Origin: a phage
Strand: one strand, 5' to 3'
Length of the DNA stretch: 64,000 nt
Sequence record: PZ445489.1
A program made the position numbers and the translations under genes. The notes beneath the pieces were generated by a model. That model worked only from the letters and a program-made list of their open reading frames with translations, searched no databases and had not been told where the DNA came from. Of the stretch, positions 6,210-64,000 are shown piece after piece (within the stretch, counting starts at the first letter, position 1; every line of letters begins with the position of its first letter).

Positions 6210-6236
6210 ATTTCTTCCTTATCAATTTATATAAAT

Positions 6237-9132: not shown

Positions 9133-9805
9133 GTTTCAGGGCAGCCTTAACAGCCTCATTAATCAACGTAATAATTTCTTCACGAGTCCACTTATACCCT
9201 AGAGATTTTACGTCAACCCCTAACTTTTCCAGATGTTTAACAGAAGCCAGCTCGTAATTCATATAATGAACGTTCTGTTGTTTGCTTTCTGATAGAAGCC
9301 ATACACGGTAACAACCAACAGGATTATCCATTGCTTTTTTGATTTCACCAATACACTGGTATCCAGGAACCCAAACAAGTTCTCCAACCTCAAATTCTTC
9401 TGCCACAGCATCGTCAGGAATAATTGGAGGATTCAATGGATCTACAATATCGTTCAAACGAAGTAGAGCACCATATCGTTCCAGAACAGATTTAACCATT
9501 GCTACAGAGCGGTAATTACGATCGGCAATTTCTTCAAAAGAATCACCAGATAGGTACTGTTCAATAACGTTGGCCAACTCAATACCTTCAATGAGTGTAC
9601 CACGTTTCTTTTTCTTCATTTCGGCAACTTGAATCTGGCGGTCTTGCCACTCTTCAATCATCCTTTCCATAGTCGGATTGGAAGATACGCCGAGCATTTC
9701 ACAAGCTGCTTTCTTGGTACCACCGTTCTCCAGATGCTCTATAACCTTTTTAAAGACTTCATCAGGGATTTCATGGATATGTTTCTTTCTGCGAGAACCA
9801 GCCAT
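9101..9805 (-). CDS. helix-turn-helix DNA-binding protein
   Basis: N-terminal HTH-like GGTKKAACEMLGVS; conserved promoter upstream on minus strand (~9815-9860). Confidence 0.5.
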   Translation of the reverse strand: MAGSRRKKHIHEIPDEVFKKVIEHLENGGTKKAACEMLGVSSNPTMERMIEEWQDRQIQVAEMKKKKRGTLIEGIELANVIEQYLSGDSFEEIADRNYRSVAMVKSVLERYGALLRLNDIVDPLNPPIIPDDAVAEEFEVGELVWVPGYQCIGEIKKAMDNPVGCYRVWLLSESKQQNVHYMNYELASVKHLEKLGVDVKSLGYKWTREEIITLINEAVKAALKLDKEKGKRRE

Positions 9806-9874
9806 ATTTAAACTCCTCTCTCAAATTTATGAATCTATTATACAGAAAAATTTTCCTGAAAGCAAATAAAATTT

Positions 9875-10117
9875 TTACGATTCCTTGAGCAGAGAAGAAA
9901 GTTCAGCATATACTTTATCTAACTCAAACCCTATGCGAAGGGATACGTTAGTCCTCCGTTGTTTAAGTAACCATTCGGATATGTTAGGGATGCCAGCTAA
10001 TCTGTGTGGTACCACCCTACATAGCTTTTCCGAAGTATCATAAACAGGAACTTTACGTTCTTTTACTGGAAACTTCCTTGTTTCCCATTTTTTATTCTTC
10101 ACTGTCATTTCTAGCAC
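9875..10117 (-). CDS. hypothetical protein (80 aa)
   Basis: ORF overlapping end of upstream 955-aa gene. Confidence 0.4.
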   Translation of the reverse strand: MLEMTVKNKKWETRKFPVKERKVPVYDTSEKLCRVVPHRLAGIPNISEWLLKQRRTNVSLRIGFELDKVYAELSSLLKES

Positions 10118-12959
10118 CTAGCTCTGACATTGCTTCATCATGCATATGTTTTTCCTCGTCAGTCATGAACTTATAAGGAATTGGCATACACTCGATTTTA
10201 CAATAGGTTCTGTACCAGTCTACAATATTTTCAGTGTTCATATCCTTACCAATACCCATCATACCAAGATACATTCTTGCATATTTTGGGTTAGCACTCT
10301 GACCTGTTTTAAGGAAGAAATCTTTCTTCTTACCTTTCAGAGCTTCTATGAATGGTTTGATAGTGACATTTGAACACTTCTTAATATCTTCCCAGAACAT
10401 CTCGTGCATTTTATGGAAGAATGCCGCTCGATCATTCGGTTTATCCTTGATATACTGTTCAACATGCTCAACTGTTACATCTTTAATAGACTCAAGATGA
10501 TAATAGCGAACAAGAAGTAGTTTAGCTTCATACGCATCCGCATGACGTGGAGCACAATAATCCGGAGTTGAATGTAGAATAGCTTTGATTCGCTCTTCTG
10601 TGTATTCTTTACCAGCACCTTCAATAGTTCCCCAGCTTTCGCTGAAAATATCAATAGTTGCACCCTGATCAAGCAAGTAATAACGTAAAGTACTAGTATA
10701 GTTCCTAGATTCCAGCTCTCTGCGACGTGCGTATAATTGCTGTGCTAACTCCGGCCAACCTTCATCAATATTATATTGCTCAGAACCTGCAGAGAACCCA
10801 CTAGTGGATTTATCAATAAAATAATAGATATTCTGAGCACCACGGTCGCGCCTGATTGCTTGGAAACGCATGTTTGGCGCTTGGTTACTAGTTCTAGTGA
10901 TAACGAATACGTTATCAAAATAGTTGAAGTCAACACCACTCGTTACGGATGGACTACATAATAAGCAATCAATTTGTTGATCAATTAGCTCATTAGTTGT
11001 GTAATCCAGAATACGTCTAATATCTACATCAGATGTAGAGTTTGAGTGGATTTCCTTAACTAACGCACCCGTATTACGACGCAATGCCATGCCCTTCTCA
11101 TTCAGTTCATCTGGACCACAGTCAGATACTAGGATAGATTTCTCACCCATCTCTAGAGAAGTCTGAAGTGCAACCCAAATACTGGACTCATCAGGGAACT
11201 CATAAGCATGAGCTTTTGACAGCATTTTACGGTGATGATTGTAAAATGCAACCGGTTTATCAAACTCAATCAAAGAACCATATGCTTCAATTGTTTCTGC
11301 ACTAATATCCCCATCAGATAATATAATGATTTTTGCAGTTGCAAGAATGTCCCGAAGAACCTGAATACATTCACGACGTTGTTTAACAACCGGGGCGAAT
11401 AATAGGTCATTCATTACAGCGTCACATTCATCGATAAAGATTGCATCAATTTGACCAATAAAACTCTTGAACTTATGCAAAGAGTGAATAGTTGTGGACA
11501 TACGGTCAATAGCACCACGCTTAAAATTAAGCATATCTACAGACTTATCATATTGTCCTGCACTAAATTTCTTAGCATTTGAAGATACCAGTGCTCGAGT
11601 ATTGGTAATTGCTAAGAAATTACCTTTAATAACTCCTGAATCCAGCCAACGCACAACCGCTGTAGTTTTACCTGTACCTAGACTTGCTTTTACAAAAGTC
11701 ATATAACCTTCTGGTGGCACGGTATTTAATTTCAAGAAGTTATCAGTTTCTAGAGAATTAGTTTCTAGCTTTTTAAGTGGAATACCTTTTAAAACATCTG
11801 GTATATCACGTTTAGAATTATTAACAAACGCTTTCAGAGCCTGTTTACGACCGTTGTTAAAATAATCTTGAATATTACGACTATTATCTTTAGTTGCAAT
11901 ATACTCAGATAAAGCTGGGCGGATCTCCTTCTCTAGCCAGCCAAAATCTACACCATCCTCTAGTGCTCGGTGATAGAGTTTAGGAATAATACGTAGATAT
12001 ACACCATCCTCAGCTTCTTCTAATTCGCTGATAGTTTCCTCTACTTTATCAGAGGCAGCTTTTTTACCTTTAATTTGGTCGAGTAAAGAATAGAACTCCT
12101 CCTTAAACTCACCTCTAGTTGTTTCATAGTCAACTAGATTATTAGGTAAATTTACTTTTGAGCCTTTAACAAATACCAGACGTGAAGTACCCTCCGCTTT
12201 AAACGGATCTACTATACCATCAGTAAATAAAGGATCTGCAAAGTAATGGAGCTGTACGGAAGAGTAATAAGCTAAGTCGGCAATATCAAAGCCATACTTT
12301 TGTCTACTACTTTCGTTGATAGATGTAAATAAGAACTTGATTTGACCCTGAGTTACTTTAACATTAGATTCTAGTATTAAGTGCATTCGGATACCTGGTT
12401 TTAGCCCAGCCGAAGATGACGCATGAGCGATAAACCCTGCATCAAGAGGAAACATATCCTCACTAATACTATTTAACATCCTAATAATATGTCGAGCCAT
12501 GCCAACAAGATCAAACTTGTTACAACCTCCTGTATCTACAATACCATCCACATCCATTGCGATTATATGACTTGGATTAGATACATTAAAGTTGCCCTTC
12601 TTACGTCGCACATTATTTTTAGGTGCAAGACATCGACCTCGTACCGCAACGATATGAGGGTCAGACGTTAAACGTCTCATAAGAGGAAGCATTTCTACTA
12701 GGGTTTGAGGATCAACTTCATCAATTACATCAAACTTGAAGGGCATTGAAGCTGGTTTACCTTCAGGATGCTTTGAGGAAAATCTTTTAGCAAAAAGATA
12801 ATCTTCTGCTTTAACTTCTCGCCAATTGCCTGTGGCTAAATCGCGATGAAATCCTGCATGACCTTGTAGGATTGAAAACACAACAATACTCCTGTATTGG
12901 AAATGAAATAAGTTTTCTTTAGGACTATTCAGAAAGAATAGAACAACTGTTACTGTCAA
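10092..12959 (-). CDS. putative replication origin-binding / helicase-like P-loop NTPase (955 aa)
   Basis: Walker A LGTGKTTAV and Walker B-like IFIDECD in central region; large size; position in replication module. Confidence 0.55.
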   Translation of the reverse strand: MTVTVVLFFLNSPKENLFHFQYRSIVVFSILQGHAGFHRDLATGNWREVKAEDYLFAKRFSSKHPEGKPASMPFKFDVIDEVDPQTLVEMLPLMRRLTSDPHIVAVRGRCLAPKNNVRRKKGNFNVSNPSHIIAMDVDGIVDTGGCNKFDLVGMARHIIRMLNSISEDMFPLDAGFIAHASSSAGLKPGIRMHLILESNVKVTQGQIKFLFTSINESSRQKYGFDIADLAYYSSVQLHYFADPLFTDGIVDPFKAEGTSRLVFVKGSKVNLPNNLVDYETTRGEFKEEFYSLLDQIKGKKAASDKVEETISELEEAEDGVYLRIIPKLYHRALEDGVDFGWLEKEIRPALSEYIATKDNSRNIQDYFNNGRKQALKAFVNNSKRDIPDVLKGIPLKKLETNSLETDNFLKLNTVPPEGYMTFVKASLGTGKTTAVVRWLDSGVIKGNFLAITNTRALVSSNAKKFSAGQYDKSVDMLNFKRGAIDRMSTTIHSLHKFKSFIGQIDAIFIDECDAVMNDLLFAPVVKQRRECIQVLRDILATAKIIILSDGDISAETIEAYGSLIEFDKPVAFYNHHRKMLSKAHAYEFPDESSIWVALQTSLEMGEKSILVSDCGPDELNEKGMALRRNTGALVKEIHSNSTSDVDIRRILDYTTNELIDQQIDCLLCSPSVTSGVDFNYFDNVFVITRTSNQAPNMRFQAIRRDRGAQNIYYFIDKSTSGFSAGSEQYNIDEGWPELAQQLYARRRELESRNYTSTLRYYLLDQGATIDIFSESWGTIEGAGKEYTEERIKAILHSTPDYCAPRHADAYEAKLLLVRYYHLESIKDVTVEHVEQYIKDKPNDRAAFFHKMHEMFWEDIKKCSNVTIKPFIEALKGKKKDFFLKTGQSANPKYARMYLGMMGIGKDMNTENIVDWYRTYCKIECMPIPYKFMTDEEKHMHDEAMSELGARNDSEE

Positions 12960-60963: not shown

Positions 60964-61694
60964 TGAAAGATTTGGCAGTAAAATTTAAGAATATTCTAGC
61001 CCTCGCTAAGGGGGCTGATCATCGCTGTTTCTCTGATCTAACTGCTCAAGAGAAACATGCAGTAATGTTTGTTTGTGAGATGTTCCCAGCTAGGTGGGAA
61101 GGTGGTAAGATTAAGTATGATAACAAAGCTGCAAAAGCTGACCTTGCTTACTCTTATGTTGATATGAATAAACTTCTCAAGTCTTTAGATCCAACTGCTA
61201 AAGGTCACATGGGAAACTATATTCATGTTATTATTGATGAACCTCTCCCAGCGTATAGAGAAACATCCGCTAGAGAAGCGTTAGAAGCGTATCCTGAGCA
61301 ACTTCTTATCCCACCTAAGAAATGTAAGTTCGATCATCTTCCAGCATTAGCTTTTGAAACTAGCATTACGTTTGAAGATATTTATAGAACGATTGGAGCT
61401 GTAGTAGCACGGATTGCAGTGGCACATCATCGTGATATAGAACTAACTACAGCGGAAGATTACATTCTATATGCTATCCACGATGAAAAGGACTCCTTCA
61501 AACGTTTAATGGATGCGCTAGGATTAGGTAGTCTCACTGCACTTGTGCTTAACCAGGCTCCTAGAACTAAGCGTTATGCAAAAGGATCTATTACTCTTGA
61601 AGAAACAGGATCTACATCTTCATTCCTTGCTACGTATATTTATCTAGCATCTAAAGGAATCTATCTAAAGGCTAGAAAGAATGTCACTATATAA
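60963..61694 (+). CDS. hypothetical protein (243 aa)
   Basis: ORF. Confidence 0.5.
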   Translation: MKDLAVKFKNILALAKGADHRCFSDLTAQEKHAVMFVCEMFPARWEGGKIKYDNKAAKADLAYSYVDMNKLLKSLDPTAKGHMGNYIHVIIDEPLPAYRETSAREALEAYPEQLLIPPKKCKFDHLPALAFETSITFEDIYRTIGAVVARIAVAHHRDIELTTAEDYILYAIHDEKDSFKRLMDALGLGSLTALVLNQAPRTKRYAKGSITLEETGSTSSFLATYIYLASKGIYLKARKNVTI

Positions 61695-62037
61695 AGTATA
61701 TATTCTTGCAAATAGGGATCTGACGAAGATCCCTAAGAGAACAAAGATCGGTATTAGTATGAATCCACATAATAGGATTCAAACACTAAACTTAGATAAG
61801 ATAGTTTATCGTGGTTTTGACGATTTATACGTGTATGGGATCTATGAAACCCATAATCCTAGAGATCTAGAAGCCGCTGCACATATCTACTTTAAGAAAT
61901 ACCGCTGTAATTTAAAGGGATTCGAAGGATGCACAGAGTTCTTTGATATTCACCCACAACTTGCAGAACGATTCCTATTAAATACAGGAGCCAAGAAGAT
62001 TTACGACCCCAATATCAATCTCGAAGGAGATGTATAA
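61681..62037 (+). CDS. hypothetical protein (118 aa)
   Basis: ORF. Confidence 0.5.
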   Translation: MSLYKVYILANRDLTKIPKRTKIGISMNPHNRIQTLNLDKIVYRGFDDLYVYGIYETHNPRDLEAAAHIYFKKYRCNLKGFEGCTEFFDIHPQLAERFLLNTGAKKIYDPNINLEGDV

Positions 62038-62054
62038 ACGTTAACAAAATCTTC

Positions 62055-62084
62055 TTGACAACTCATTGCGGAACATGTTATAAT
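62055..62084 (+). promoter_or_regulatory. strong sigma70-type promoter reading into ORF-free repeat region
   Basis: TTGACA-18-TATAAT. Confidence 0.55.
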
Positions 62085-62359
62085 AATCTCATAGATTAAA
62101 AACAACTCTTGTTTTGAACTCTAGGGGCGATGATTATTACACTTAGTATTACGTCTATACGTTGCGACAGCACGAGTATAGATCTAATTACTAAGTCTTC
62201 CGTAATACTCACGCGCCCCACGAGGAATCTCACATGAAATGGGGGTATATTTACTTTTAAATAACTAAAAATATTTAAAGGCAATATCTGTGTTCAAGAT
62301 GATACACCTGTTGCCGCTCATCTGCTAGGATGGCACAACACTTTCTAGTAGACTCCTAA

Positions 62360-62563
62360 GTTTCTAGGAATAGTTGAGCACTAACTCTAGAGTTTACATT
62401 AAACTTTAAATCTGTTTCTCTAGCCAACTCAGGCGGTTTTCATTGTTCCTAGAAACTCTAGCAATAGGCGGTTATAGGGAGGGCGGTTATTTCTAGAAGA
62501 CATTTTTTGAAAACACATTTCCAGAAATTACTGTCGGATTTGCACACTGCATTTCTAGAAATT
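62360..62563. repeat. cluster of palindromic (A)TTTCTAGAAA-like sites (~5 copies)
   Basis: TTTCTAGGAA 62361, TTCCTAGAAA ~62446, TTTCTAGAA 62489, ATTTCCAGAAAT ~62517, ATTTCTAGAAAT ~62551. Confidence 0.6.
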
Positions 62564-63133
62564 TATGGTCGGATTTGCACAAACGCCTAAGTTTTTAGGG
62601 ACACATAATCTCCTGAAAATAGCAGCATTATTTCGGGCCGAAGGCCCATGATTGCCTGAGTTTTTAGAGCCACAGAAATTTTCACTTGTCAAGCTATTTT
62701 GCCCCGTTTAGCTAATAAAATTTTACTTTTTCTGCACCTATCTCAAATTAACCCAAATTATCTCACATCTTCCCCAAAATCCCCGCAAATCAGGTGCTCC
62801 GCACCAAACATGCGCCCCATCCTTCTAGCCTCCCAAATTTCTCTCACTCTCTCATCTTCTCCTCAAACCCACACAATCACACACCCTCCAATCGAAGTCA
62901 CAAAAATCTTGTCGGATTCGCACAAATAAACCCATGTCGGATTTGCACATATTCTAGCTAATTCCACAGGATTGATGCGCAGCATCGGATTGCTGGAGTT
63001 TTTGGGAAAATTCATTGTCGGATTTGCACACTATAAAAATTTTTCGGGTCGGATTTGCACACTACCAAAAATTGTCGGATTCGCACATACATGCCCGCAC
63101 GTAACACCCGTGGAGCAATGTCGGATTTGCACA
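62533..63133 (+). repeat. 8 direct copies of 14-bp motif GTCGGATT(T/C)GCACA
   Basis: Copies start at 62533, 62568, 62911, 62936, 63017, 63048, 63074, 63120, all in same orientation, variable spacing. Confidence 0.8.
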
Positions 63134-63138
63134 AAAGC

Positions 63139-63156
63139 GCAGGGCAATTGCCCTGC
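63139..63156. repeat. 18-bp perfect palindrome GCAGGGCAATTGCCCTGC
   Basis: Self-complementary. Confidence 0.75.
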
Positions 63157-63164
63157 TAGCCTGA

Positions 63165-63300
63165 ATGCGAATGATAATAAGAATCATTATCATTTAAAAA
63201 GCGAAATGAGAACTATTCAAAAAGTGAAATGATTCTCATTTAGGAAAGGAAATGATTATCGGTTAGAAAGTGAAATGCGAATGAGAATAATTCTCATTTA
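63165..63300. repeat. series of inverted repeats built on GAAATGA / TCATTTC and AATGAGAAT / ATTCTCATT half-sites
   Basis: ATGATAATAAGAATCATTATCAT, GAAATGATTCTCATTT, AATGAGAATAATTCTCATT. Confidence 0.65.
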
Positions 63301-63331
63301 AGAATGGAAGTGAGAAACACTGTTATTTAAG

Positions 63332-63340
63332 TTATCCACA
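63332..63340 (+). promoter_or_regulatory. DnaA box (TTATCCACA)
   Basis: Exact 9-mer match to consensus. Confidence 0.5.
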
Positions 63341-63404
63341 GACTTATTAACAGCACGATTTGACTTGACAGAATCCTAGCCATTTTGAGGCGTTATTAAC
63401 AGAC

Positions 63405-63413
63405 TTATCCACA
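63405..63413 (+). promoter_or_regulatory. DnaA box (TTATCCACA)
   Basis: Exact 9-mer match; flanked by repeated GACTTAT / TTATTAACAG motifs. Confidence 0.5.
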
Positions 63414-63421
63414 GCTTATCC

Positions 63422-63441
63422 TACTGTATAAATATACAGTA
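63422..63441. promoter_or_regulatory. LexA-box-like palindrome TACTGTATAAATATACAGTA
   Basis: CTG-N10-CAG with AT-rich spacer, 9-bp arms perfectly self-complementary. Confidence 0.55.
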
Positions 63442-63644
63442 TTCCTACGTAGTGAATAATTCTAATATACCGCTAAAACGTCCTAGATCGCATTCTAACG
63501 CGTTTAATTTTGGTGGGGATACTAAAACAAGGGCAAAATTGGAGGAGGCTTAAAAATTAGTTAGCCCGCTAACGATCACACAAGTCGACACGTAACACCC
63601 TAATCATTAGCAGGCTAACCATCGCGGGCGCGCTCAAATGAGAA

Positions 63645-63669
63645 TGATTCTCATTTGAGAATTGGGGGC
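63645..63669. repeat. 25-bp near-perfect palindrome TCAAATGAGAATGATTCTCATTTGA
   Basis: Same half-site family as 63165-63300 repeats. Confidence 0.65.
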
Positions 63670-63697
63670 ACTCCCTGGTAGTTGCGCCCCGTTATTA

Positions 63698-63892
63698 TTA
63701 ATCCGGTAATTGATGCGTGATCTTCTCCTCTTCCCCATAGGAATCGACCAAATGCTGATAATAACCATCGGCATCATAAATAACGCTATCATATTCCCCC
63801 CGCTCGACCGCTTGCCGGTTTTCCGGCGTATCGGGCACGTAAAAAACATCAACCATTGTACTGATTTTGGTTACAACAATTTTATTGCTCAT
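63698..63892 (-). CDS. hypothetical protein (64 aa)
   Basis: ORF only; beyond the repeat region, opposite strand. Confidence 0.3.
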   Translation of the reverse strand: MSNKIVVTKISTMVDVFYVPDTPENRQAVERGEYDSVIYDADGYYQHLVDSYGEEEKITHQLPD

Positions 63893-64000
63893 TGCGCCAC
63901 CTTTCGAAACGCTGTTTCAATACTATCCGCAGTGGATTGAATATACGCGCCTTTCATTACTAGGCGCTCGGTGCATACCTTGCGGAAAATATTAATAAAA

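What the first reader, a model, noticed from the sequence alone, without database searches (positions are those of the whole stretch)
63422..63441. Near-consensus LexA (SOS) box in a virulent-phage intergenic region
TACTGTATAAATATACAGTA has the CTG-N10-CAG architecture with an AT-rich spacer and perfectly complementary arms, close to the E. coli SOS box consensus. A virulent T5-like phage has no obvious need for SOS regulation, so it may couple an adjacent function to host DNA damage or titrate LexA.
Basis: partly seen in the sequence, partly recalled or inferred. Interest (0 to 1): 0.6.

Follow-up and report, generated by a model that had tools for sequence, protein, structure and literature searches.

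The report
LexA box in T5 injection-stop region
A near-perfect binding site for the bacterial DNA-damage repressor LexA sits at a fixed distance from paired DnaA boxes inside the "injection stop" region of T5-like phages, is conserved across the whole phage family, seems not to have been recognised before, and gives a testable handle on how these phages pause and resume DNA delivery.

Summary
TACTGTATAAATATACAGTA lies at 63422-63441. It scores as well as the best E. coli SOS operators (heterology index about 1, 25 bits). The next best site in the 64 kb window scores 8.2, which is chance level.

The window is a T5-like phage read in reverse. The box lies in the non-coding Repeat Region 3, the "injection stop signal", of the terminal repeat. 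It sits 8 nt from a pair of DnaA boxes and about 200 bp inside the DNA that has entered the cell when transfer pauses. T5 itself carries the identical 20-mer at 9409-9428 and a weaker inverted copy at 6211-6230.

The DnaA-pair plus LexA-box module occurs in every Demerecviridae genus sampled, including Klebsiella, Pantoea, Yersinia, Proteus and four Vibrio phage lineages. The box is more conserved than its flanks, and its substitutions follow LexA's tolerance. The same 20-mer sits upstream of umuD-like, dinI and SRAP genes in unrelated prophage-like contigs.

The box overlaps no convincing promoter and lies downstream of an operon terminator. The likeliest reading is a selected LexA docking site in a host-protein complex on first-step-transfer DNA. 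What it controls is untested. No paper I could search mentions LexA here.

The parts
63422..63441 (.). LexA-type (SOS) box TACTGTATAAATATACAGTA. It corresponds by position to T5 9409-9428, probably the palindrome called palD in T5 nomenclature.
   Evidence: HI about 1, 25 bits; identical in T5; family-wide conservation; same 20-mer upstream of SOS genes elsewhere.
63414..63421 (+). Conserved 8-nt linker GCTTATCC between the DnaA 9-mer and the LexA 20-mer. It reads G(G/C)TTATCC in enterobacterial relatives and resembles the start of a third, truncated DnaA repeat.
   Evidence: cross-genus alignment; per-column conservation.
63393..63413 (+). IRD' DnaA-box pair: TTATTAACA (63393-63401), 3 nt, TTATCCACA (63405-63413).
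   Evidence: (D9). Davison 2020 (10.1101/866236) describes paired DnaA boxes 3 nt apart in IRD'.
63353..63392 (+). Stretch between the IRC' and IRD' DnaA-box pairs, containing the conserved TTGACTTGACAGAAT (63360-63374). A weak promoter-like match, TTAACA-16-CAGAAT with TG, at 63347-63374 points through the DnaA pair and the LexA box.
   Evidence: promoter-like count is not above shuffles; the motif recurs in relatives (flank sequences).
63332..63352 (+). IRC' DnaA-box pair: TTATCCACA (63332-63340), 3 nt, TTATTAACA (63344-63352). No LexA box is attached to it.
   Evidence: (D9).
63170..63316 (.). DRC/DRE-type repeat zone with Fur-box-like palindromes. The best is GATAATAAGAATCATTATC at 63173-63191. 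The first-step-transfer shear point of T5 (about 9618) maps near 63230.
   Evidence: D2, D5-D7; 2 mismatches to the Fur consensus, expected 0.02.
62533..63138 (+). Eight DRD direct repeats GTCGGATT(T/C)GCACA. The 3' part, ATTTGCACA, matches 8 of 9 positions of the relaxed DnaA box. The terminal-repeat end maps near 62630 and the T5 major nick near 63100.
   Evidence: (D1).
63442..63549 (.). Conserved non-coding flank on the operon side of the box. It carries motifs related to CTAAAACGCTCT and AACGCATTCTAACGCG. No conserved ORF or RNA structure was found.
63550..63573 (-). Terminator-like hairpin plus T-run of the rightward pre-early operon. It is weak in this phage, stronger GC hairpins occupy the same place in relatives, and T5 has an annotated terminator at 9275-9296.
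63633..63659 (.). 27-bp palindrome CTCAAATGAGAATGATTCTCATTTGAG, probably palC. Its core resembles the Fur-like repeats.
   Evidence: I8.

Best explanation
The palindrome is a genuine operator for host LexA, kept by selection at maximal affinity. It is one fixed part of a composite host-protein docking module: DnaA box, 3 nt, DnaA box, 8 nt, LexA box. The module occurs twice in inverted orientation in the terminal repeat of all T5-like phages. One copy is at the injection-stop region (Repeat Region 3, this site). The other is in Repeat Region 2, 3-4 kb away, and the two bracket the rightward pre-early gene block.

Inferred mechanism: when the first 8% of the genome enters, LexA binds within seconds, next to DnaA. 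The centre-to-centre distance is about 22 bp, roughly two helical turns. Together they form a nucleoprotein complex about 200 bp inside the stalled DNA entry point. Pre-early proteins then destroy the host chromosome, so the LexA pool should be cleaved via RecA and not replenished. LexA occupancy would then be confined to the first-step pause. The box would act as a releasable clamp or roadblock, switching whatever the module holds in check once host takeover has succeeded. Candidates are resumption of DNA transfer, transcription running toward the not-yet-injected DNA, or DnaA-complex remodelling.

Shown here: the sequence identity, the conservation, the fixed architecture and the location. 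Inferred: LexA binding in vivo, co-occupancy with DnaA, SOS-driven release and the controlled output.

My sub-estimates are about 0.85 that LexA binds the site, about 0.35 that the output is control of the transfer pause or resumption, and about 0.25 that it is transcriptional insulation.
For: The site scores like the best SOS operators and is a strong outlier in the window.

In about 440 kb of T5-like loci, every site with HI<7 lies at one of two positions, each next to a DnaA-box pair. T5 itself has the identical 20-mer inside its annotated iss, plus an RR2 copy.

The module is present in Yersinia, Pantoea, Klebsiella (Sugarlandvirus), Proteus (Novosibvirus) and Vibrio (Pogseptimavirus, Jesfedecavirus, Thalassavirus, D25) phages, down to about 31% A1 identity. 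An A1-encoding phage outside the family lacks it.

The box is the most conserved element: 1.68 bits per column, against 1.36 for the DnaA pair and 0.71-0.79 for the flanks. Among 38 half-sites the CTG positions carry 1, 0 and 0 substitutions, and the variability profile correlates with the LexA motif (rho 0.84, p 0.002). The centre flips AA<->TT between phages, as expected for a symmetric dimer site and not for a directional promoter element.

The identical 20-mer precedes UmuD-like, DinI and SRAP genes in unrelated contigs that have no T5 proteins, and only 1 of 104 of those has a DnaA box nearby.

The box lies downstream of the operon terminator. It overlaps no promoter above chance, and no ORF or structured RNA is conserved next to it.

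LexA binds targets extremely rapidly, and bound LexA is protected from cleavage (PMC3159453). The iss mechanism is still described as unresolved, with only DnaA proposed as a host factor.
Against: There is no binding or functional data of any kind; everything rests on sequence.

LexA sites normally act at promoters, and this one does not. The non-promoter role is therefore argued from absence, using a weak promoter scanner and no transcription-start data.

Both copies are already inside the cell during the pause, and LexA is cytoplasmic, so it is unclear how it could physically stop transfer.

Second-step transfer needs A1 and A2 proteins, so LexA loss alone cannot be sufficient.

From memory and unverified: classical work does not report that recA or lexA hosts block T5, which argues against an essential role.

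A third class of the palindrome, with an ATG half-site (HI 8-10), is conserved from Yersinia to Vibrio phages. This hints at selection on the TGTATA..TATACA core that does not require LexA's CTG.

Inner positions 6-9 are more conserved than in chromosomal SOS boxes. That could mean selection for maximal affinity, or a second reader.

The instances used for the conservation statistics were chosen by HI<7, which inflates the apparent CTG invariance somewhat. My LexA matrix is from memory.
Confidence: 0.6

Rival explanations
1. It is a classical SOS operator. The box represses a local sigma-70 promoter, either the weak extended -10 type element between the two DnaA-box pairs that reads through the DnaA pair and the box, or a promoter using the box's own TATACA / TATATT hexamers. 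A short transcript or read-through and antisense transcription of the rightward pre-early block would then be SOS-inducible.
For: LexA boxes almost always work this way. Weak promoter-like matches overlap or precede the box: TATACA-16-AATAAT at 63433-63460 and TTAACA-16-CAGAAT with TG at 63347-63374. In RR2 of a close relative a 10/12 promoter lies upstream and would read through the module. In an unrelated phage, a DnaA-box array plus LexA boxes sit just upstream of a TTGACA early promoter. In Vibrio and Proteus relatives the third-class boxes abut promoter-like elements that face A2/A1.
Against: The promoter-like count in the region is no higher than in shuffles (6 against 5.7). The candidate hexamers are weak and not conserved across genera. 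The centre of the palindrome flips orientation between phages. The box lies after an operon terminator. No conserved ORF, Rfam family or conserved RNA structure lies downstream. The T5 record annotates experimentally mapped promoters elsewhere, none at the box.
Confidence: 0.2
2. The palindrome is read mainly by a phage protein, for example the essential DNA-binding protein A2 or the A1/A2 complex as a cleavage or loading site, as in Davison's restriction-site model. Alternatively it matters as DNA structure. Its likeness to a LexA box would then be incidental, or would serve competition with LexA.
For: A2 is a conserved DNA-binding protein found across the family next to A1. Davison proposed that A1/A2 cut a palindrome in this tract. 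Third-class copies keep TGTATATTTATACA while one CTG is replaced by ATG in several lineages. Inner positions are more conserved than LexA alone requires.
Against: A 19/20 match to the host consensus, including the outer TAC/GTA, is improbable for an unrelated specificity. The site stays constant while A1, and presumably A2, diverge to 31-42% identity. That fits a conserved host reader, as it does for the adjacent DnaA boxes. The identical 20-mer functions upstream of SOS genes in contigs lacking A2. A2 shows no detectable similarity to any Pfam family or solved structure, so nothing links it to this motif.
Confidence: 0.13
3. It is a LexA decoy. The phage sites titrate LexA to induce or modulate the host SOS response.
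For: The sites have very high predicted affinity and each genome carries several copies.
Against: There are two to three sites per terminal repeat against about 1,300 LexA molecules per cell (PMC2994835). The host chromosome is destroyed within minutes, so host SOS gene expression is moot (10.64898/2026.04.02.716235). The fixed spacing to the DnaA boxes would also be unexplained.
Confidence: 0.03
4. It is a chance or neutral palindrome with no function, carried along in a conserved repeat region.
For: The tract is full of repeats and palindromes.
Against: The site is an extreme score outlier. It is retained at a fixed offset across genera whose flanks are unalignable. It is the most conserved block of the module.
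Confidence: 0.02

Closest known systems
High-affinity chromosomal SOS operators of E. coli (umuDC, sulA, recA type)
   Same: It is a 20-bp TACTG-N10-CAGTA palindrome with an AT-rich centre. Its predicted affinity is at the top of the scale (PMC2994835).
   Different: It does not overlap a recognisable promoter, lies after a terminator, and has no downstream gene. It sits in a virulent phage and is fused to DnaA boxes.
LexA operators of temperate phages and mobile elements (for example GIL01 P1, colicin operons, and the prophage umuD/dinI/SRAP genes seen here)
   Same: A mobile element uses host LexA as a sensor. The identical 20-mer is found upstream of Peptidase_S24, DinI and SRAP genes in prophage-like contigs.
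   Different: Those sites control promoters in elements that have a dormant state to leave. T5-likes are strictly lytic, and this site is architectural in position. Only 1 of 104 of the other sites has a DnaA box nearby.
T5 injection stop signal / Repeat Region 3, with the DnaA-box model (Davison 2020, bioRxiv 10.1101/866236)
   Same: It is the same locus with the same order of elements: palindromes, then IRD', a spacer, IRC', the DRE/DRC repeats and the DRD repeats. The palindrome is very probably the one listed there as palD. The DnaA boxes come in pairs 3 nt apart.
   Different: That work names DnaA, and speculatively IHF and FIS, as host partners, and treats the palindromes as possible A1/A2 cleavage sites. 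LexA, SOS and Fur are not mentioned. The fixed LexA-box-to-DnaA-pair unit and its presence in Vibrio and Proteus genera are shown here.
Regulatory regions that combine DnaA and LexA sites (the E. coli uvrB promoter region, from memory; the early-control region of unrelated phage contig L074)
   Same: DnaA boxes and LexA boxes lie close together.
   Different: There the boxes flank clear promoters, and the spacing is not the fixed 8-nt fusion seen in T5-likes.

Membership tests
Gammaproteobacterial LexA operator (SOS box) | A 16-20 bp palindrome CTGT-N8-ACAG with a low heterology index or high PWM score. | tested here: met
   HI 0.93-1.05 and 25 bits, at least as good as all 27 reference sites and far outside the null. 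The matrix was recalled from memory. The scale is anchored by PMC2994835.
Gammaproteobacterial LexA operator (SOS box) | The sequence evolves under LexA-type constraints: CTG/CAG invariant, outer and central positions free. | tested here: met
   Among 38 half-sites the CTG positions carry 1, 0 and 0 substitutions and positions 1-2 carry 13 and 7. Spearman rho is 0.84, p 0.002. Caveat: the instances were selected by HI<7.
Gammaproteobacterial LexA operator (SOS box) | The same sequence is used as an operator of known SOS genes. | tested here: met
   The exact 20-mer lies directly upstream of Peptidase_S24, DinI and SRAP genes in unrelated viral contigs.
Gammaproteobacterial LexA operator (SOS box) | The site overlaps or abuts a promoter so that LexA represses transcription. 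| tested here: inconclusive
   Only weak 9/12 promoter-like matches occur, at chance frequency. The box lies after a terminator. No transcription-start data are available.
Gammaproteobacterial LexA operator (SOS box) | LexA binds the site specifically in vitro or in vivo. | not testable with these tools
   This needs EMSA, SPR, footprinting or ChIP.
T5 injection stop signal / Repeat Region 3 | A non-coding, repeat-rich tract at the inner end of the terminal repeat, between the last pre-early ORF and the first early genes. | tested here: met
   Window 63533-62293 aligns to T5 9317-10608 at 87% identity. The T5 record annotates iss at 9140-10149 and the LTR end at 10219. The tract has no long ORFs.
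T5 injection stop signal / Repeat Region 3 | The characteristic order of elements: palindromes, IRD', spacer, IRC', DRE/DRC, about 9 DRD repeats, with paired DnaA boxes. | tested here: met
T5 injection stop signal / Repeat Region 3 | It acts in cis to halt DNA transfer at about 8% of the genome. | not testable with these tools
   Only T5 and BF23 have been tested experimentally, according to Davison 2020.
Fur box (for the neighbouring palindromes) | A match to the 19-bp consensus GATAATGATAATCATTATC. | tested here: met
   63173-63191 has 2 mismatches against 0.02 expected. Fur-like boxes recur in enterobacterial relatives and PG07 but not in three Vibrio lineages. Binding was not tested.

The most novel reading that the evidence does not exclude
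Host LexA, docked next to DnaA at this box, is a working component of the T5 injection-stop checkpoint. It helps hold the genome at the 8% pause. Its RecA-triggered destruction, caused by the phage's own A1-dependent demolition of the host chromosome, is the signal that host takeover has succeeded and licenses second-step transfer together with A1/A2. A strictly lytic phage family would then use the SOS repressor as a timer for DNA delivery and not for prophage induction.
Probability: 0.15. Interest if true: 0.9.

Novelty: new variant of a known kind. Interest (0 to 1): 0.7.

Why it matters
How T5 stops DNA entry at 8% and restarts it minutes later has been an open question for more than fifty years. 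Papers from 2020 to 2026 still call the mechanism unresolved and name only DnaA as a candidate host factor.

A family-wide, maximal-affinity LexA site fused to the DnaA boxes adds a second, well-understood and experimentally tractable host protein to the problem. LexA can be removed (lexA(Def)), frozen (lexA(Ind-), recA) or mutated at the operator, so the idea can be tested with standard strains and the classical blender or qPCR entry assays.

It would also be an unusual case of an obligately lytic phage family conserving an SOS box in a non-promoter position. That would extend the list of ways mobile elements exploit LexA. Even if the output turns out to be ordinary local repression, the site is a useful annotation for more than 500 sequenced T5-like genomes, many of them considered for phage therapy.

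Tried and rejected
- Rfam scan of 61900-64000 at E<=1 gave no hit.
- The small ORF after the box (63452-63553, 33 aa, GTG start) was rejected. The start codon is not conserved (GTG here, a different ATG in Klebsiella phages, none in L038), and the apparent peptide similarity follows nucleotide motifs.
- RNAalifold on 15 diverse 140-nt flanks predicted zero pairs. Only lineage-specific terminator hairpins recur.
- A host origin for the module was rejected: there is no match in 5,426 complete E. coli genomes.
- A promoter over the box was not supported. The matches are weak, at chance frequency, and not conserved.
- A2 as a LexA-like protein could not be assessed. It has no Pfam family and no solved homologue by sequence. 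I ran no further search on it, because a fold would not reveal DNA specificity.
- The Davison 2015 review could not be retrieved. Heusterspreute 1987 and Wang 2005 are not in the library either, so the claim of no prior LexA annotation rests on Davison 2020, the BF23 2023 paper, two 2026 T5 papers and full-text searches.
- One paper search was poorly specified and returned nothing useful.
- Locus L160 looked like an exception lacking the box. The whole module there, DnaA boxes included, is garbled, which is consistent with poor sequence quality.

Full report
**Observation.** The sequence TACTGTATAAATATACAGTA is at window 63422-63441 as reported. It is a perfect 9+2+9 palindrome with the CTGT-N8-ACAG core of gammaproteobacterial LexA operators.

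I built a heterology-index (HI) and weight matrix from 27 E. coli SOS boxes recalled from memory, so the numbers are approximate. On that matrix the site scores HI 0.93-1.05 and about 25 bits, equal to or better than every reference operator. The next best 20-mer in the 64 kb window is HI 8.17. The best HI in 100 Markov-1 random sequences of the same size averaged 9.77 (sd 1.43, minimum 3.91). The bare core occurs 4 times against about 1 expected, so the outlier is the full 20-mer and not the core. [quoted passage not shown] Window 63533-62293 aligns to T5 9317-10608.

- The box lies in a tract of about 1.5 kb without long ORFs. [quoted passage not shown]
- Mapped landmarks: terminal-repeat end near 62630, T5 major nick near 63100, first-step-transfer shear point (about 9618 in T5) near 63230.
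- The box therefore sits about 200 bp inside the DNA that has entered the cell when transfer pauses.
- Following the rightward pre-early operon (window minus strand), the order is: last ORF (63892-63698, the T5.017 homologue; phrog_6973), a 27-bp palindrome (63659-63633), a terminator-like hairpin with T-run (about 63573-63550; annotated terminator in T5 at 9275-9296), a conserved non-coding flank, the LexA box, an 8-nt linker, the IRD' DnaA-box pair (63413-63393), the stretch between the two pairs, the IRC' DnaA-box pair (63352-63332), Fur-like repeats, eight DRD repeats, and the end of the terminal repeat.

**Conservation.** To avoid circularity I fished relatives with the DnaA-box pair and, separately, with the DRD repeat, not with the LexA box.

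- Most contigs that merely carry tandem DnaA boxes have no LexA-like site nearby (HI above 13). Every locus homologous to this region has one, 7 nt after the conserved ...ACAG, which is 8 nt after the 9-mer.
- In about 440 kb of T5-like loci, all sites with HI<7 fall at just two positions. One is next to IRD' in Repeat Region 3 (HI 0.9-2.4). The other is next to IRD in Repeat Region 2, in inverted orientation 2-4 kb away (HI 0.9-5.2).
- T5 itself has the identical 20-mer at 9409-9428 and CACTGTATAAATATACAGGG at 6211-6230.
- The module persists in Yersinia phiR2-01 (three copies), Pantoea AAS21, two Klebsiella Sugarlandvirus phages, Vibrio PG07, Proteus phage 2, and Vibrio D25, JSF10 and Quinn. 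A1 protein identity to T5 falls to about 31% and the outer flanks no longer align.
- Shewanella phage 1/4, which encodes an A1-like protein but is outside the family, has no such site.
- The one apparent exception, L160, has the whole module garbled, DnaA boxes included, and looks like poor sequence.

**Conservation statistics.** Across 58 distinct module instances the box is the most conserved block: 1.68 bits per column, against 1.36 for the DnaA pair plus linker and 0.71-0.79 for the flanks. Among 38 half-sites the CTG positions carry 1, 0 and 0 substitutions, while positions 1-2 carry 13 and 7. The positional conservation profile correlates with that of the E. coli LexA motif (Spearman 0.84, p 0.002). 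The caveat is that instances were collected with an HI<7 filter. The central dinucleotide flips AA<->TT between phages in the same orientation. That fits a symmetric dimer site and not a directional element.

**Is it really a LexA site?** An argument independent of my matrix is that the exact 20-mer (with a WW centre) occurs in at least 104 other viral loci, 70 of them intergenic. Most come from contigs of roughly 30-50 kb. There it lies directly upstream of genes for Peptidase_S24 (UmuD-like), DinI and SRAP proteins, which are classic SOS-regulon members. Only one of the 104 has a DnaA box within 150 nt. So the sequence is used as an SOS operator in contexts with no T5 proteins, while the DnaA+LexA fusion is specific to T5-likes.

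The background rate of comparably strong sites in 1.05 Mb of unrelated viral DNA is 3 with HI<3 and 8 with HI<5, and several of those are evidently real operators. There is no counterpart of the module in complete E. coli genomes.

**What it does not look like.**
- The box does not overlap a convincing promoter. The scanner finds only 9/12 matches (TATACA-16-AATAAT at 63433-63460; TTAACA-16-CAGAAT with TG at 63347-63374), at a frequency no higher than in shuffles. These hexamers are not conserved across genera.
- The box lies after the operon's terminator.
- The 33-codon ORF downstream is not conserved as an ORF. No Rfam family matches, and 15 diverse flanks share no RNA structure.
- In Repeat Region 2 of a close relative, a 10/12 promoter upstream would read through the module toward a strong terminator. 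A transcriptional role therefore cannot be excluded.

**Neighbouring host-factor sites.** The tract also has a Fur-consensus match with 2 mismatches (63173-63191, expected 0.02). Related Fur-like palindromes recur in enterobacterial relatives and PG07 but not in three Vibrio lineages. The 3' part of each of the eight DRD repeats is an 8/9 match to the relaxed DnaA box. The region thus looks like a landing pad for abundant host DNA-binding proteins, and the LexA box is its most universally conserved element.

**Mechanism (inference).** LexA binds targets extremely rapidly, and bound LexA is protected from RecA-stimulated cleavage (PMC3159453). There are about 1,300 LexA molecules per cell (PMC2994835). 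A consensus operator on first-step-transfer DNA should therefore be occupied within seconds, next to DnaA at the adjacent pair. The centre-to-centre distance is about 22 bp.

T5 pre-early functions digest half the host chromosome within four minutes (10.64898/2026.04.02.716235). That should activate RecA and eliminate the free LexA pool, with no resynthesis. LexA occupancy would then be confined to the first-step pause.

I therefore favour a releasable architectural or roadblock role in the iss nucleoprotein complex. The controlled output could be the transfer pause and its release, insulation of transcription running toward un-injected DNA, or remodelling of the DnaA complex.

**Points against.**
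- There are no experimental data.
- It is physically unclear how a cytoplasmic protein bound to DNA already inside the cell could halt entry.
- I recall no report that recA or lexA hosts block T5 (memory only).
- A third, weaker class of the palindrome has an ATG half-site (HI 8-10). It is preceded by GCTTAGAATCG...AGAGCGTTTTAG and followed by promoter-like elements facing A2/A1. It is conserved from Yersinia to Vibrio phages, which leaves room for a second reader of the TGTATA..TATACA core.

**Rivals.**
- Classical operator of a weak local promoter: 0.2.
- Site for a phage protein such as A2, or an A1/A2 cleavage site as Davison proposed: 0.13. A2 has no Pfam or PDB relatives.
- LexA decoy: 0.03.
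- Chance: 0.02.

**Novelty.** The palindrome and the tract are known descriptively. It is probably palD of Wang 2005 and Davison, and the DnaA boxes were noted in 1987 according to Davison 2020. In Davison 2020, the 2023 BF23 paper, a 2026 T5 preprint and a 2026 PNAS paper, the words LexA and SOS do not occur. Full-text searches pairing T5, T5-like or Tequintavirus with LexA or SOS-box terms found nothing relevant. Three older subscription papers could not be checked.

I rate it a new variant of a known kind. It is an SOS box, but in a strictly lytic phage family, in a non-promoter position, and fused to DnaA boxes at the injection-stop region. Interest is 0.7, because it makes a long-standing question directly testable with standard lexA and recA strains.

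Noticed in passing
window 63173-63191; also 63280-63302 and 63633-63659: GATAATAAGAATCATTATC matches the 19-bp Fur-box consensus with 2 mismatches (expected 0.02 per window). Related palindromes AATGAGAAT(A/G)ATTCTCATT repeat nearby. Fur-like boxes recur in the same zone of enterobacterial T5-likes and Vibrio PG07, but not in Vibrio D25, JSF10 or Quinn. This is intriguing because the T5 receptor FhuA is Fur-regulated (the FhuA point is from memory).
   Followed up: partly
window 62533-63138: Eight DRD direct repeats GTCGGATT(T/C)GCACA. The 3' part, ATTTGCACA, matches 8 of 9 positions of the relaxed DnaA box TTWTNCACA. Eight of the window's 37 NTWTNCACA sites lie in 62100-63700. They could be an array of low-affinity DnaA sites extending past the terminal-repeat end.
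   Followed up: partly
window 62055-62084 (+): A perfect sigma-70 promoter, TTGACA-18-TATAAT with an upstream TG, lies just after a homing-endonuclease-like ORF (61681-62037, phrog_18411). It points from the unique region into the repeat tract, toward the LexA box 1.3 kb away.
   Followed up: no
L176 (T5) 6211-6230; L021 7381-7400; other loci holding both copies: A second, weaker LexA-type box is attached to the IRD DnaA pair of Repeat Region 2, inverted relative to this one. The two modules bracket the variable rightward pre-early gene block. This copy lies outside the window.
   Followed up: yes
L181:9898, L177:5438, L184:10574, L185:3788, L183:10939, L182:9911: A third class of the palindrome is preceded by GCTTAGAATCG...AGAGCGTTTTAG. 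In several lineages one half-site reads ATG in place of CTG (HI 8-10). It is followed by promoter-like elements facing the A2/A1 operon. T5 itself lacks it.
   Followed up: partly
L183 about 10968; L185 about 205 and about 3817; L184 about 7655; L177 about 5467: Vibrio T5-like phages carry sigma-54-type promoter motifs (TGGCAC-N5-TTGCW) right next to the LexA-type boxes in the pre-early region. That would imply dependence on RpoN and an enhancer-binding protein.
   Followed up: no
L181:6167, 6268, 9513, 9884; L179:5856, 6131; L184:7712, 7812, 10560; L185:262, 3774; L177:5424; weaker relatives in window 63470-63507: The 12-mer CTAAAACGCTCT / AGAGCGTTTTAG recurs near the modules from Yersinia to Vibrio phages. 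It is a candidate binding site for a conserved phage protein.
   Followed up: partly
window 63430-63433 and the equivalent positions in relatives: The central dinucleotide of the palindrome is AA in some phages and TT in others in the same orientation relative to the DnaA pair. This is consistent with inversion or gene conversion between the inverted RR2 and RR3 copies, or with a functionally symmetric site.
   Followed up: partly
L074 5140-5400 (also L100, L095, L101): Unrelated metagenomic phage contigs have five consensus DnaA boxes followed by two or three strong LexA boxes, just upstream of a TTGACA promoter for early genes. This is an independent pairing of DnaA and LexA sites, here in a classical promoter context.
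   Followed up: partly
L179:188 and L166:4427 (Klebsiella-type phages); T5 228-252: Fur-consensus matches with 1-3 mismatches lie near the dmp gene at the extreme left end of the genome.
   Followed up: no
L160 100-420: One IMG/VR genome (2974662754, 104 kb) has a garbled version of the whole DnaA/LexA module with many extra bases. It is probably a low-quality assembly and not a natural loss.
   Followed up: partly
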